From Candidatus Freyarchaeum deiterrae (GTDB taxonomy: Archaea > Asgardarchaeota > Jordiarchaeia > Jordiarchaeales > Jordiarchaeaceae), in contig CP147778.1 of NCBI GenBank assembly GCA_037305845.1, positions 2,240,001 to 2,304,000 of the forward strand: a stretch of DNA of 64,000 nucleotides, in the 5' to 3' direction. Below, piece after piece: positions 3,935-47,491 of the stretch; the stretch's first letter is position 1, and the number at the start of each line of letters is the position of its first letter. A model generated the notes under the pieces. It was not told the DNA's origin and did not search any database. It was given only the letters and a program-made list of their open reading frames with translations. The translations under genes and the position numbers were made by a program.

Positions 3935-4656
3935 TTGGCAAAAGATAATTTTTTGACAGAAAAGAAAAAACTTTTAGAGAACCTGAAGCGCACCGGCTTT
4001 GTTACCAGAGAAAACGTAATGCAAGCGTTCCTCAGAGTTCCCCGAGAAGAATTCGTGCCAGAGAACCTCAGAGACAAAGCTTACGTTGACCACCCCCTAC
4101 CAATTCCAGGCGGTCAAACAATATCTGCGCCACGCGAAAAAGCATATCCCTGCTTTTCGGGCGAAACATGTGCGTTCTAATGTGCGACGTACTAGAATTG
4201 GAAAAGGGCATGAAAGTACTAGAAGTAGGCGGAGGTTCAGGTTATCACGCAGCGCTATGCGCTGAGATAATAGCACCCACAGGTTCCAAAAGCGAGGGCC
4301 ATGTCTACACCATAGAACGAATACCCGCGCTAGTCGATTTTGCCAACGAAAATCTGAAAAAAACTGGATACATTGACAGAGTAACCATCTACACAGGAGA
4401 CGGCTCGGAGGGATTCCCCGATATGGCTCCCTATGACGCCATACTTGTGACAGCTGCAGCGCCCAAGGTGCCCCAACCACTCATTGACCAATTAGCCGTG
4501 GGAGGAAAATTAGCCATTCCTCTCGGGAGCCTTTTCATGTATCAGGAATTGATAGTAGTTGAAAAATTAGAGGGCGGTCAGACGAAGAGGCACAGGTTCG
4601 GTGGTGTGGCCTTCGTTCCGCTATTGGGTCGTTGGGGGTATCGTAATAGTTGGTAA
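3935..4656 (+). CDS. pcm: Protein-L-isoaspartate O-methyltransferase, spliced: join(3935..4133,4166..4656), 229 aa
   Basis: The N-half (VPREEFVP..AYVDHPLPI..GQTISAP) and C-half (VLEVGGGSGYHAA, GDGSEG, APYDAILVTAA, FVPL) are in different frames. Removing 4134-4165 yields GQTISAPHM. Confidence 0.92.
4134..4165 (+). other. 32-nt BHB intron in pcm mRNA
   Basis: Central helix CGCC(4128-31)/GGCG(4160-63), bulges AC|G and AA|A, intron stem CGAAAAAGCA/TGCTTTTCG, exon pairs TG/CA. Confidence 0.88.
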
Positions 4657-38819: not shown

Positions 38820-39129
38820 TTGCCGCAAAAACGTAAAAGTCGTGGAAGAGCCAAAGGAAGCGCTGGAAAGAAATCACTCGTCCAATGCTCCGGGTGTGGG
38901 GCCATGGTGCCTCGCGATGTCAATTTGCTCAATTGAGCAAGTACGCGATAAGGCTAAGCGTGTGACCCGATACACCACATTGGTTGATCCAATGATCGGT
39001 CGAGAATTAAGACAGCAGGGAGCATACATTCCAAGAACTAGAGAAATCAAGGTATACTGCATCAACTGTGCTGTTCACAGAAAATTGACTCGGGTAAGAC
39101 CAAAGGAAGATAGAAGAGACAGAAGATAA
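38820..39129 (+). CDS. rps26e: Ribosomal protein eS26, spliced: join(38820..38918,38950..39129), 92 aa
   Basis: Exon 1 MPQKRKSRGRAKG..VQCSGCGAMVPRD plus exon 2 KAKRVT...YCINCAVHRK..RVR give a complete eS26 with all four Zn cysteines. Confidence 0.93.
38919..38949 (+). other. 31-nt BHB intron in rps26e mRNA
   Basis: Exon helix GCCT/AGGC, central helix CGCG/CGCG, bulges AT|G and AT|A, internal palindrome TTGCTCAATTGAGCAA; in-frame TGA within the intron. Confidence 0.9.
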
Positions 39130-43131: not shown

Positions 43132-44403
43132 GTGATTATGTTGAAAGATTTACAGATCCCTTACGGCAAAAAAGAAATCAGATTTAACCTACCAAACAAC
43201 TGGAATCTGCTAGGCGTTCTCTCACCAAAGATAACCAACAAGCAACTTGATCCTTACAAGGCGGTACTGAAAGCGGTGAGAAATCCAATAGGAACCGAAA
43301 GCCTGTATGATATAGCACACAGAAAAAGGAATGCAGTAATCCTCTCAGATGATAAAGCACGCCCTACCCCCTCAAACCTTATTATTCCTCCATTACTGGA
43401 CGAGTTAAATCGGGCTGGTATTCCCGATGGTAAAATTACTATTATCATAGGAAGGGGATTGCACGAATCTCTGAATGAAAAAGAACTTGAAAAGAAGCTA
43501 GGTGAGAATGTCTTAGAACGGGTTGCTGTCATTGATCATGAACCAGATAAAGATTTAATTAACGTTGGAAAAACTCCTCAAAACGTGCAGGTATTCATTA
43601 ATAAAAACGTTGTTGAGGCGGACCTAAAGATAGGTATAGGCAGCCTTACACCTCACGAATTATCTGGATTCACAGGAGGCGCAGGAATCGTTGTACCTGG
43701 CGTGGCTGGAAGGCGAACCATTAATCAAAACCATTCTCTTGTTAAAAGGTTCAAGGCAGAATTCGGAAAAATTGAAGGAAATCTCATACGCAAAGATATG
43801 GAAGACGCAGCCAAGTTGCTTGGATTAGACTTTTTGGTAAATGCTACTCTGGACGTTAACGATCAGATAGTAGATATATTTGCAGGAGATGTGGTTAAGG
43901 CTTCCCATGAAGCGGTTGAAAGTGCTAAGAACATTTACGGTGTGCACATCGATAAAAAGGCAGACGTAGTGATAGCCAGTTCTCATCCAAAAGATGATAC
44001 TTTCGGCAAATCAATGAAAGCCATTTTCGCTTCTTCACTGGCAGTCAAACCAGACGGCGTTATAATACATGTAGCGCCCTGCTGGGACGGGCTGTCGCAC
44101 AGTGAAATTTTCGAGAAAATGTTACTAGACAATCCTGGACTAGAAACATTATTCAAGATATTGGATAGAGGACAACTTCCTGGAGAAAGCTGTGTACTCT
44201 ACCTGTTTGCTTTAGTTAAAAATAAACTTAGAATCATAGTAGTTACCGACGGAATAGAAAAAGAGGTCGTAGAAAAAATGGGTTTAGAATACGCTGAAAA
44301 CATAGAAACCGCCTTAAAAAACACTGGAAAAGAAAAAGCGGATTGTACCGTGCTGCCCTGGGGCGCTGTCTCATTACCTATTCTAAATAATTCGAGTGAG
44401 TAA
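43132..44403 (+). CDS. larA: Nickel-pincer-dependent lactate racemase family protein (LarA-like)
   Basis: NPIG, D..RPTP, GRGLH, PHELSGFTGG, PGVAG. Confidence 0.85.
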   Translation: MIMLKDLQIPYGKKEIRFNLPNNWNLLGVLSPKITNKQLDPYKAVLKAVRNPIGTESLYDIAHRKRNAVILSDDKARPTPSNLIIPPLLDELNRAGIPDGKITIIIGRGLHESLNEKELEKKLGENVLERVAVIDHEPDKDLINVGKTPQNVQVFINKNVVEADLKIGIGSLTPHELSGFTGGAGIVVPGVAGRRTINQNHSLVKRFKAEFGKIEGNLIRKDMEDAAKLLGLDFLVNATLDVNDQIVDIFAGDVVKASHEAVESAKNIYGVHIDKKADVVIASSHPKDDTFGKSMKAIFASSLAVKPDGVIIHVAPCWDGLSHSEIFEKMLLDNPGLETLFKILDRGQLPGESCVLYLFALVKNKLRIIVVTDGIEKEVVEKMGLEYAENIETALKNTGKEKADCTVLPWGAVSLPILNNSSE

Positions 44404-44598
44404 TGTCCATTTTACATGTTTCAAAACTTATTCTATTCCCCTTTTCCTATATTTTCTTTTAAATTTCATTGGTATTTTTTATTAATTTCGAAACAAAATC
44501 TAAGTTTTATTATCCATCTCTTTTAAAAGCAAATATGTAACACTAAAATTAGTGAAATAATAGAATGGATAATATTGCATAAAGTGGAGGCTTTGTAA

Positions 44599-45926
44599 TT
44601 GCGCTTTTTTTCGGACTTGCACATACATAGCAAGTATAGTAGGGCCACCAGTGATAAAATGGATATTGAGAATTTGATAAAGCATGCCAAGGTTAAGGGA
44701 CTAAACCTGCTAAGTTCTGGAGACCTATCTCATCCAAAATGGTTATCCGAGTTGAAAAACAAACTGATAGAGATCGAGGATTCGGGATTTTTCAGGGCTG
44801 AGGGCGAAAATGATGTTTTCTTTGTTCTTTGCACCGAAGTGTCAACTGTCTTTAGACATGAAGGAACTTCAAAGAAGATTCATCATCTTTTGTTTGCTCC
44901 TAATTTCGAAGTAGCTGATAAAATGAACGAATTTTTAGCGAAATTCGGGAATCTGAAAGCAGACGGTAGACCAATGTTGAATATTACCCCCGCAGAACTC
45001 GTTGAGAATCTTATAAATATTGATGAAAGAATATTAATCGTTCCTGCACATTTATGGACCAGTTGGTTTGGTGCATTAGGTGAAAATGGTTTCGACAGTT
45101 TAGAAGACTGTTACGAAGATCAGCTAAAGCACATCTACTCTGTGGAAACAGGTTTATCCTCTGACCCGGCTATGAACTGGAGACTGAGCAAATTGGACAA
45201 ATACGTTTTAATGAGTAACAGCGACGCTCACAGCCCATGGGATTGGAGGCTTGGTAGGGAAGCAAACGTTTACGAACTAAAATCTCCATCCTACCGAGAA
45301 TTAACCGAGGCTATAAAAACAAAAGACAGGGAAAAAATTCTTATGACCATCGAAGTTGACCCCGCCTATGGAAACTAATTCGAAGTGAGTCCGAGTTAGC
45401 CATAAAATATCACTTCGATGGTCACCGCGCAGATAAACATCAAAGCGGTACGGACGTATACATGTCTCCAAAAGAGGCTATTAAAATAAGTAACATTTGT
45501 CCAATCTGTAGAAAGAAAATGACTATCGGAGTGCTACACAGAGTAGAAGAATTAGCTGATCGAGATGAAAATTATTTACCCAAAAATTATGTACCCTTCA
45601 AAAGATTAATTCCTTTGACAGAACTCATTGCGGCTGCTATGAGGATTGATGACTTGTACTCTAAGCAGATTTGGGAGATGTACTACCGACTTGTGAATTC
45701 TTTCGGTAACGAGTACAATATTTTAATTAATGTTCCCAAACCCGATATTGAGGCGGTGGTGGATCAGAAAATTGCTGATTTAATTATCAATAACCGAGAA
45801 GGAAGACTAAAGATTAGACCAGGTTTCGATGGGGTGTATGGAAAAGTTGTTTTAGACGAAAAAGAAGCTAAAGGTAAAGGCTTTAAACAGCTGGAGCAGA
45901 AAAGTCTGGATGGATATTTTAAATAA
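44599..45926 (+). CDS. endoQ: EndoQ-family PHP-domain endonuclease, spliced: join(44599..45373,45406..45926), 431 aa
   Basis: DLHIHSKYSRATS, PAHLWT.WF, ETGLSSDP, SNSDAHSP, GREAN; restored PAYGKYHFDGHR; CPIC..GVLHRVEELADR, PGFDGVYG, PIP-like QKSLDGYF. Confidence 0.9.
45374..45405 (+). other. 32-nt BHB/BHL intron in endoQ mRNA
   Basis: Central helix ATGG(45368-71)/CCAT(45400-03), bulges AA|A and AA|A, intron stem CTAATTCG/CGAGTTAG; in-frame TAA within the intron. Confidence 0.86.
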
Positions 45927-46171
45927 AAGACTAATTTAAATAACTCTTCATAAATTTAAGAATATAATTAGAGATTATTTAATGGAAAAATTTTTCCCGT
46001 CTTTAATAGTTAACCAAAACAAGATTACTTTTAAAAAGCCATAATAAAAAGAGTTATTATAAACTTATTCCCAAAATATGCTAAAGACAAATAAAAAACT
46101 CGAAAATCATAAATTTAAATACTAAAAATGCATTACTATTCCATGATACAGCCGTACAGGAGGAAAAAATA

Positions 46172-46426
46172 ATGCCCAAGGAAGATGAGAAGAAAGTATT
46201 CTCAGATAAAGTAAAAATCAAGGCAAAAGAAGAACGCGTACCCATAATAGCTCCAGCAGAGTTTAAAGAAGGCGGCGCAATATCAGCTAGAATCACCTTT
46301 AAGGGAGACGAACAAATATCCCCATTTCTAAAACTAGCGGTTCTATTCCGAAAACCGGTAGTTTTTTACAACGATGTCTTCTACATACCAAACAGCAGCG
46401 AACTTTATGAATTAAAATCCCGATAA
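46172..46426 (+). CDS. Small hypothetical protein
   Basis: GGAGG SD, ATG start, 84 aa, host-like codon usage. Confidence 0.65.
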   Translation: MPKEDEKKVFSDKVKIKAKEERVPIIAPAEFKEGGAISARITFKGDEQISPFLKLAVLFRKPVVFYNDVFYIPNSSELYELKSR

Positions 46427-46795
46427 GCTGGCAGCAATCAGAGTGAATTCATCAAGGGAAGAAGAAAATAAAATTTATTAAAACTCACCCTACTCTTCCT
46501 ATTTATTAATTATTTAACTACGTTCAAATTACTTTCTAAAAAATTAAAATAATAATTTAAAATTAATCTCTGGTTAAAAAGTACCCTATTTTTTTCAAAA
46601 CTAAACCTACTAGCATCTAACCAGCTTTAAATGCTATAACCTCAATCTAATTCATTAAATATAAAATCCCCATTTATCTACTTCTAATCCTCATTAAAAA
46701 ATAGTTTTACAAAGAATTACTAAAGAATATAACTCATAATATAAGGGGATAGGAGAAGCGCTAGGTAGAAACTTCTCCCTCGAAAAATTACCTAA

Positions 46796-47491
46796 CTATT
46801 CCTCCGAAGCAAACAGCTTCTTTAATCTACCAAGCTCTGTCATCATCGCATTCCTAAGATCCGTAATAGAGCCCGCATCCTGTTGAACCGCAGCTCCTAT
46901 CGCAGCCGAAGCGGCTACACCAGGTGCACCCATACTCGGCGGTCCACCTACTGCTGGTGTTCTACCCGCTACCGGCGGCATACCTGCTGGTGGTCTGCCT
47001 CCCGCTGATGGCGGTCCACCTATACTTGGCGGTGCGCCTGCTGATGGCGGCATACCTGCTGGTGGTCTGCCTCCCGCTGATGGCGGTGCGCCTGCTGATG
47101 GCGGCATACCTGCTGGTGGTCTGCCTCCCGCTGATGGGGGCATACCTGCCGCAGTTGCTGGTTGAGTGCCGGTTTTGGTAGAGAACATACCAAATACATC
47201 ATCTGGTGCGGTTCTACTACTTAATGATTCTAGTGGGACGGATGATGATGACGATACTATTGTTTCCTGCGTTCCCATTGCTGTAGATTGAGGCATAGCA
47301 AGTTCGGAAGCTCCGAGGTCGACCTCCATTCCTTTCGCCGCTTTTGCGAGGTCTTTTTGTAGACTTTCTACCGATTTAGAGTAGGCTTCTTGTGCTTTCT
47401 TTAGGGATTCGATATACTTATTAGAAAAACTGAGCAGGGAGGAACAAGCCTTTTGAACGAACCGTAATAGTTTCTCTTCTTTCTTGGGCAA
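46796..47491 (-). CDS. Coiled coil + Pro/Gly-rich repeat region + WH2-like C-terminal helix
   Basis: N-terminal heptads, (AGMPPSAGGRPP)-type repeats, tail DLRNAMMTELGRLKKLF. Confidence 0.75.
   Translation of the reverse strand: MPKKEEKLLRFVQKACSSLLSFSNKYIESLKKAQEAYSKSVESLQKDLAKAAKGMEVDLGASELAMPQSTAMGTQETIVSSSSSVPLESLSSRTAPDDVFGMFSTKTGTQPATAAGMPPSAGGRPPAGMPPSAGAPPSAGGRPPAGMPPSAGAPPSIGGPPSAGGRPPAGMPPVAGRTPAVGGPPSMGAPGVAASAAIGAAVQQDAGSITDLRNAMMTELGRLKKLFASEE
46925..47160. repeat. Coding tandem repeats built from 18-bp units (higher-order 54-bp blocks)
   Basis: GGCATACCTGCTGGTGGTCTGCCTCCCGCTGATGG occurs three times, with variant units between. Confidence 0.9.

What the first reader, a model, noticed from the sequence alone, without database searches (positions are those of the whole stretch)
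45361..45420. endoQ intron interrupts the conserved GKYH motif
The unspliced frame reads PAYGN*. The structure has ATGG/CCAT, bulges AA|A on both sides and an 8-bp intron stem. Excision makes A+AA = Lys and PAYGKYHFDGHR, fusing two ORFs into a 431-aa DNA-repair nuclease. The outer exon helix is only 1 bp, a relaxed BHL-like substrate. Two of the three intron hosts (Pcm, EndoQ) repair spontaneous damage.
Basis: partly seen in the sequence, partly recalled or inferred. Interest (0 to 1): 0.83.

Follow-up and report, generated by a model that had tools for sequence, protein, structure and literature searches.

The report
tRNA-type intron in Asgard endoQ
The only copy of a DNA-repair gene (endoQ) in this Asgard archaeon is broken by a 32-base insert shaped like a tRNA intron, so its messenger RNA very probably has to be cut and re-joined by the tRNA-splicing enzymes, a process published for only one other archaeal coding sequence.

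Summary
Confirmed. A 32-nt insert (45374-45405) with an in-frame TAA splits the Lys codon of endoQ's GKYH motif. Cutting after the second base of each bulge gives a 431-aa EndoQ; that Lys matches PfuEndoQ K243, needed for activity. All 11 genomes of this Asgard class, plus two metagenome contigs, carry a 24-32-nt insert at this codon, with covarying stems and lengths in all three frames; 107 other homologues are uninterrupted there. Both exons are under purifying selection, and DNA from another study keeps the insert. The genome encodes a two-subunit EndA and RtcB. The repair-gene link is not supported: cbf5, tyrS, porA, leuC/hacA, alba and rps26e carry such inserts too. No RNA run was available, so splicing is inferred. 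It works like the crenarchaeal cbf5 intron. This scan already found the endoQ intron in a Ca. Jordarchaeum genome and many similar Asgard introns; I found no paper reporting them.

The parts
44586..44590 (+). GGAGG Shine-Dalgarno-like site 8 nt before the TTG start
   Evidence: sequence
44599..45373 (+). endoQ exon 1: PHP nuclease domain (residues 1-258) plus the first base of the Lys259 codon
   Evidence: aligns to PfuEndoQ 5-242, E 5e-38; metal ligands invariant
45344..45356 (+). 5' arm of a 13-bp exon-exon helix (codons M-T-I-E-V)
   Evidence: synonymous-recoding test
45368..45374 (+). central helix 5' strand ATGG (45368-71) and 5' bulge AAA (45372-74); predicted cut between 45373 and 45374
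45374..45405 (+). 32-nt BHB/BHL-type intron; in-frame TAA at 45376-78; 8-bp inner stem 45375-82/45392-99, 9-nt loop 45383-91
   Evidence: present in DNA contigs of runs X4, X5, X9
45400..45406 (+). central helix 3' strand CCAT (45400-03) and 3' bulge AAA (45404-06); predicted cut between 45405 and 45406
45406..45926 (+). endoQ exon 2: last two bases of Lys259, Zn-binding domain and C-terminal helical domain, stop at 45924-26
   Evidence: PfuEndoQ 259-390, E 2e-14; dN/dS 0.10-0.15
45412..45424 (+). 3' arm of the 13-bp exon-exon helix (codons H-F-D-G-H)

Best explanation
endoQ is one gene with a tRNA-type intron. The transcript folds into a 4-bp central helix with a 3-nt bulge on the 5' side, an 8-bp intron hairpin and a loose 3' bulge or loop, clamped in this genus by a 13-bp exon-exon helix. 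The cell's two-subunit splicing endonuclease EndA cuts after the second base of each bulge (45373|45374 and 45405|45406), the 32-nt intron leaves, and RtcB joins the exons. A+AA restores Lys259 and the frame, giving a 431-aa endonuclease Q that nicks DNA at deaminated bases. Unspliced mRNA gives a 259-aa stub without the Zn-binding and helical domains. Shown here: the break, the fold prediction, position conservation, covariation, selection on both exons, presence of EndA and RtcB. Inferred: cleavage by EndA, ligation by RtcB, the exact cut register, and the enzyme's activity. The intron was gained once at the base of this class and is one of many such mRNA introns in the genome, most likely kept because it is removable and not because it regulates repair.
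For: Removal restores a motif that is contiguous in 107 other homologues, with Lys in 106. Insert at the same codon in 11 of 11 genomes of the class plus 2 metagenome contigs; lengths 24, 28, 29, 32 (all three frames), each with an in-frame stop. Pair counts: 91.7% paired, 5 pairs with two-sided changes, central helix ATGG/CCAT vs ACGG/CCGT, slid controls 21-49%. dN/dS 0.03-0.15 in both exons. Single endoQ copy. Lys259/Tyr260 match Pfu K243/Y244, whose Ala mutants lose activity (PMC5961232). EndA alpha and beta and RtcB are present; the alpha subunit's best match keeps the crenarchaeal loop Lys linked to relaxed substrates (PMC12397907). The same cut rule rebuilds this genome's tRNA-Tyr and tRNA-Ile. 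The insert is real DNA in several runs. Intron-bearing proteins form one branch, SH-aLRT 100.
Against: No spliced RNA was seen or could be sought. A strict BHB costs about 7 kcal/mol against the lowest-energy fold; the open BHL-like form costs 1.5, so the 3' site is relaxed. In four genomes of genus g2 the frame-restoring register has a G-A mismatch in the central helix, and a register slipped by one base is about 2.5 kcal/mol more stable and would give a frameshift. Covariation rests on 13 related sequences, with few independent events.
Confidence: 0.92

Rival explanations
1. Ribosomal bypass or frameshift: the ribosome takes off at AAC before the TAA in the hairpin (as in T4 gene 60), lands on AAA and continues, with no RNA cutting.
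For: In the own genus a stop codon follows at once at the foot of a hairpin (GGA AAC TAA), and AAA is a 2-of-3 match to AAC.
Against: Insert lengths fall in all three frames; in family f2 the first frame runs 2-9 more codons and has no matched landing codon. The product would carry Asn for the nearly invariant Lys that matters for activity. The central helix covaries as a BHB helix.
Confidence: 0.03
2. Split gene: two separately translated polypeptides (259 aa and 154 aa from ATG 45462) that assemble into EndoQ.
For: The break lies near the PHP / Zn-domain boundary (Pfu 238/239), and an ATG-initiated ORF exists.
Against: That ORF would lack 19 residues including K259, Y260 and H261-R265, yet these codons are conserved in frame upstream of the ATG in all carriers. 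No ATG, GTG or TTG lies in that frame between the upstream TGA (45357) and AAA 45405. It does not explain the conserved BHB.
Confidence: 0.03
3. Dead gene or assembly error.
For: The frame is broken by a stop, and one Zn-ligand Cys of relatives is Tyr in this genome.
Against: The insert is in DNA contigs of several runs, one from another study with a loop substitution; same site in 13 loci; dN/dS at most 0.15 in both exons; catalytic ligands intact; no second copy.
Confidence: 0.01
4. The intron is spliced but serves as a regulated switch that gates DNA repair, for example through the 9-bp pairing of the intron loop (45380-88) with exon 2 (45410-18) or through temperature-dependent folding.
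For: endoQ gained introns twice independently; pcm has one at a shared site in three Asgard lineages; the intron has been kept across a whole class; the 9-bp complement exists in this genome.
Against: Hosts are functionally mixed. The alternative pairing folds at -19.2 against -31.9 kcal/mol with probability near 0, is cut to 7 bp in the nearest relatives (G45387A) and is absent from the 28-nt introns.
Confidence: 0.1

Closest known systems
BHB intron of cbf5 pre-mRNA in Desulfurococcales and Sulfolobales (Watanabe 2002; Yoshinari 2006; Yokobori 2009, PMC2738675)
   Same: Short intron in a coding sequence; relaxed BHB; cut between the 2nd and 3rd bulge bases; splits the codon of a functionally critical residue after its first base; variable interior with conserved junction pairing; host has a two-subunit EndA.
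   Different: Other host gene (endoQ) and lineage (Asgard); one of many such introns per genome; a long flanking exon-exon helix in this genus; splicing shown for cbf5 but only inferred here.
HVO_1309 BHB intron of Haloferax volcanii (PMC7714728; reviewed in PMC10485636)
   Same: EndA-cut BHB intron in an mRNA.
   Different: That intron lies in the 5' UTR and does not break a frame; Haloferax has a homodimeric EndA.
Non-canonical tRNA introns of Freyarchaeia and Atabeyarchaeia (PMC11291895; bioRxiv 10.64898/2026.10.13.758758)
   Same: Same lineages, motif and enzyme; repeated independent gains in the two classes, as seen here for endoQ.
   Different: The passages I searched report tRNA introns only, none in protein-coding genes.
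Endonuclease Q of Pyrococcus furiosus (PDB 5ZB8, 7K30; PMC5961232; TIGR00375)
   Same: PHP + Zn-binding + helical domain order; metal ligands and K243/Y244 equivalents kept.
   Different: The Pyrococcus protein is one contiguous chain; the C4 zinc site is altered here (only the CPIC pair is clearly kept).

Membership tests
Archaeal BHB/BHL (EndA-type) intron | 4-bp central helix between exon 1 end and intron end | tested here: met
   ATGG/CCAT, pair probability 0.98-0.99; compensatory ACGG/CCGT; one G-A mismatch in genus g2
Archaeal BHB/BHL (EndA-type) intron | 3-nt bulge at the 5' site closed by an intron helix | tested here: met
   AAA 45372-74 followed by an 8-bp stem; four stem pairs with two-sided changes
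Archaeal BHB/BHL (EndA-type) intron | 3-nt bulge at the 3' site closed by an exon helix (strict BHB) | tested here: not met
   Only 1 bp (2 bp in most relatives); strict form 7 kcal/mol above the minimum. Fits the relaxed BHL-like class: internal loop closed by a 13-bp exon helix
Archaeal BHB/BHL (EndA-type) intron | Cut after the 2nd base of each bulge restores the functional product | tested here: met
   431-aa frame with GKYH here and full frames in all 13 loci; the rule also rebuilds tRNA-Tyr and tRNA-Ile of this genome
Archaeal BHB/BHL (EndA-type) intron | Host encodes an EndA able to take relaxed substrates, and an RNA ligase | tested here: met
   Two EndA subunits and RtcB; loop with conserved Lys in the alpha subunit. 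Substrate range itself not assayed
Archaeal BHB/BHL (EndA-type) intron | Spliced RNA exists in vivo, or EndA cleaves in vitro | not testable with these tools
   No RNA holder listed; needs RNA-seq, RT-PCR or an assay
Endonuclease Q (TIGR00375 / PfuEndoQ) | PHP domain metal ligands H8, H10, E76, H84, H139, D193 | tested here: met
   H8, H10, E80, H95, H151, D209 invariant (ligands from PMC5961232)
Endonuclease Q (TIGR00375 / PfuEndoQ) | K243/Y244 and the Zn-binding and C-terminal helical domains in one chain | tested here: met
   After splicing only
Endonuclease Q (TIGR00375 / PfuEndoQ) | C4 zinc site (C249, C252, C268, C271) | tested here: inconclusive
   CPIC kept; first pair replaced (His; Tyr where most relatives have Cys)
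Endonuclease Q (TIGR00375 / PfuEndoQ) | Score above the curated TIGR00375 cut-off (326.6 bits) | tested here: inconclusive
   Halves score 111 and 80 bits, summing below the cut-off; the joined protein was not scanned
Endonuclease Q (TIGR00375 / PfuEndoQ) | Nicks DNA 5' of deaminated bases | not testable with these tools
   Needs an enzyme assay
Group I / group II self-splicing introns | Catalytic RNA core of hundreds of bases | tested here: not met
   32 nt; no Rfam match at E up to 1 in 44000-47000

The most novel reading that the evidence does not exclude
Splicing of endoQ is a regulated checkpoint: Asgard archaea use EndA/RtcB-dependent removal of a mini-intron to tune DNA-repair capacity, an IRE1/XBP1-like control in the closest prokaryotic relatives of eukaryotes. 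The two independent intron gains in endoQ and the clamping exon helix would then be products of selection for control.
Probability: 0.1. Interest if true: 0.88.

Novelty: new member of a known kind. Interest (0 to 1): 0.68.

Why it matters
In the literature I could search, endonuclease-type splicing of an archaeal coding sequence is documented for cbf5 alone (plus one 5' UTR). This intron, kept across a whole Asgard class and accompanied by at least seven more in the same genome, says that protein-coding messages are routinely spliced by the tRNA machinery in close relatives of eukaryotes. It bears on how introns arise and spread before a spliceosome, gives a short, exactly predicted substrate for an EndA assay, and means that automatic annotation splits or truncates genes (endoQ, pcm, tyrS, porA, rps26e) in these genomes.

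Tried and rejected
RNA evidence: no RNA holder listed; four runs laid were all contigs guessed to be DNA and showed no joint over the intron; this is no evidence on splicing. A first genome-wide BHB scan timed out; loose versions were unspecific (591 hits vs 591-662 for shifted cuts; 20 vs 13-20); only the short, stable class was enriched (10 vs 1-2), and it misses known cases such as rps26e, so I give no census. In one search the distal helix was mis-registered and three energies are invalid; one search corrects them. Rows L038 and L044 are pattern artefacts (intronless genes). Six short open frames in other Asgard endoQ genes were checked for further introns: five are contig ends or contiguous at GKY, and one (L185) lacks a match over residues 82-181 and was not followed. 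The intron-loop/exon-2 9-bp switch was rejected. Rfam: nothing. The sigma-70 promoter scan was at chance level and is not suited to archaea. The EndoQ-DNA complex paper (PNAS 2021) is not held. The genome-contig scan returned no named member of this class, so the organism name is inferred. No structure was predicted, since the spliced protein cannot be given by reference.

Full report
Observation. The frame from TTG 44599, which has a GGAGG 8 nt upstream, ends ...PAYGN* at TAA 45376-78. Removing 32 nt (45374-45405; three other registers in the A-runs give the same result) yields a 431-aa frame reading PAYGKYHFDGHR. The two halves match consecutive parts of TIGR00375 and of Pyrococcus EndoQ (residues 5-242 and 259-390).

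Organism. The window lies in a single-contig genome of 3,576,204 bases, 40.7% G+C, from wetland or freshwater sediment. Size and habitat match the complete genome of Ca. Freyarchaeum deiterrae (3.58 Mbp), whose tRNA genes nearly all carry introns (PMC11291895); the name is my inference. The insert is not an assembly error: contigs of runs X4 and X5 span it with no difference, and a contig from another study carries it with six substitutions, one in the intron loop (G45387A), none in the stems.

Relatives. All 11 genomes of the class (two families, three genera) and two metagenome contigs have an insert at the same Gly|Lys junction. Lengths are 24, 28, 29 and 32 nt, so all three frames occur, and every one has a stop in the first frame. 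In 107 other homologues, among them 19 Asgard loci, the motif is contiguous, with Lys in 106. The 13 carriers form one branch (SH-aLRT 100, quick tree, midpoint root), consistent with one gain. On their alignment 91.7% of cells pair; the central helix changes from ATGG/CCAT to ACGG/CCGT, and four inner-stem pairs change on both sides, while slid controls pair at 21-49%. The sequences are related, so these are few independent events. Both exons are under purifying selection (dN/dS 0.03-0.13 and 0.10-0.15) and the genome has no second endoQ.

What the break would cost. The six PHP metal ligands of PfuEndoQ are invariant. The split codon is Lys259, the match of Pfu Lys243; K243A strongly lowers activity and Y244A lowers it (PMC5961232). 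An unspliced message gives a stub without the Zn-binding and helical domains. A second polypeptide from ATG 45462 would lack 19 conserved residues, and no common start codon lies upstream in that frame. Bypass or frameshifting fails on the three different frames and the lack of a matched landing codon.

Machinery. The genome encodes two EndA subunits and RtcB. The catalytic subunit's best solved match (3P1Z/3AJV, Aeropyrum pernix by my knowledge) shares the loop ending in Lys44; such loops are linked to cleavage of relaxed motifs (PMC12397907; PMC2724299). Cutting after the second bulge base rebuilds this genome's tRNA-Tyr and tRNA-Ile, so the rule fits locally. The substrate is relaxed: the lowest-energy fold has a 5-bp central helix (-31.9 kcal/mol), the open BHL-like form is at -30.4 and the strict BHB at -24.9. 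The distal exon helix is present in all eight sequences of the own genus branch (z -4.3 to -7.6), absent from intronless homologues (z above -1.8) and from family f2. It is stronger than most synonymous recodings give (P 0.0003-0.045 in the genus, 0.09-0.70 in f2), so codon choice appears selected to close the structure. One puzzle remains: in genus g2 the frame-restoring register has a G-A mismatch, and a slipped register that would frameshift is 2.5 kcal/mol more stable.

A second gain in the same gene. Three genomes of another Asgard family (two complete at 2.8 Mb, probably Atabeyarchaeia) have 41-, 53- and 54-nt inserts in the GTGD|F motif of endoQ, with GGAG/CTCC or GGGG/CTCC helices; only the canonical cut fits both helix and frame. 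They are contiguous at GKYH and form a separate branch.

Repair link. The pcm insert is shared by the whole class and by one genome each of two other families, with a compensatory helix change; the rps26e insert is found only in this genome. A genome scan for short stable motifs gave 10 frame-restoring hits against 1-2 for shifted cuts. Halves of four of them match consecutive parts of Cbf5, TyrRS, PorA and LeuC/HacA; for Alba only the second half scored. Two repair genes among at least eight mixed hosts do not show enrichment.

Comparison and novelty. It works like, and meets the testable features of, the relaxed BHB intron of crenarchaeal cbf5 (PMC2738675). A 2023 review lists only cbf5 and the Haloferax HVO_1309 5' UTR intron as spliced archaeal mRNAs. 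Papers on Asgard introns cover tRNAs only in the passages found, and four searches found none on Asgard mRNA introns; subscription journals are not covered. This scan has already noted the endoQ intron in a Ca. Jordarchaeum genome and many similar Asgard introns, some with RNA support; I did not test that RNA support. Verdict: a real intron with about 92% confidence, a new member of a rare known kind, splicing inferred and not shown; interest 0.68.

Noticed in passing
window 4134-4165 (+): pcm carries a 32-nt BHB intron in TISAP|HM; same site in all 11 genomes of the class and in G021 and G016 of two other families (CGCC/GGCG vs CACC/GGTG), absent from 11 other Asgard loci read.
   Followed up: yes
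window 38919-38949 (+): rps26e carries a 31-nt insert in VPRD|K found only in this genome, not in five congeners: a recent gain in a single-copy ribosomal protein gene.
   Followed up: yes
L026, L028, L029 (endoQ of G031, G021, G041): Independent 41-54-nt BHB introns at GTGD|F in endoQ of another Asgard family.
   Followed up: yes
G000:C1:1483415-1483446 (-), L182: cbf5 has a 32-nt intron after the first base of the catalytic Asp codon (GTL|D|PK), the position described for crenarchaeal cbf5: shared ancestry or parallel gain.
   Followed up: partly
G000:C1 1873137-1873166 (-), 1589354-1589381 (-), 2636158-2636190 (-), 1125569-1125598 (+), 987065-987095 (+), 1877011-1877066 (-): Frame-restoring BHB inserts in tyrS, porA, leuC/hacA, alba, an HD-domain gene and probably ahcY.
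   Followed up: partly
L008-L011 (genus g2), endoQ intron: Central helix has a G-A mismatch in the frame-restoring register; a slipped, more stable register would give a frameshift. Unexplained.
   Followed up: partly
window 45380-45388 vs 45350-45359 and 45410-45418: The intron's 5' part resembles the exon-1 helix arm and is complementary to exon 2 over 9 bp; not favoured energetically and not conserved, but it may hint that the four extra bases came by local templating.
   Followed up: yes
   Followed up: no
window 46796-47491 (-): 231-aa ORF with a Pro/Gly/Ala-rich repeat region (PPAGMPP...); function not examined.
   Followed up: no
whole genome: ARAGORN finds only 17 tRNA genes, several with odd long introns, as expected if most tRNAs carry multiple non-canonical introns.
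   Followed up: partly
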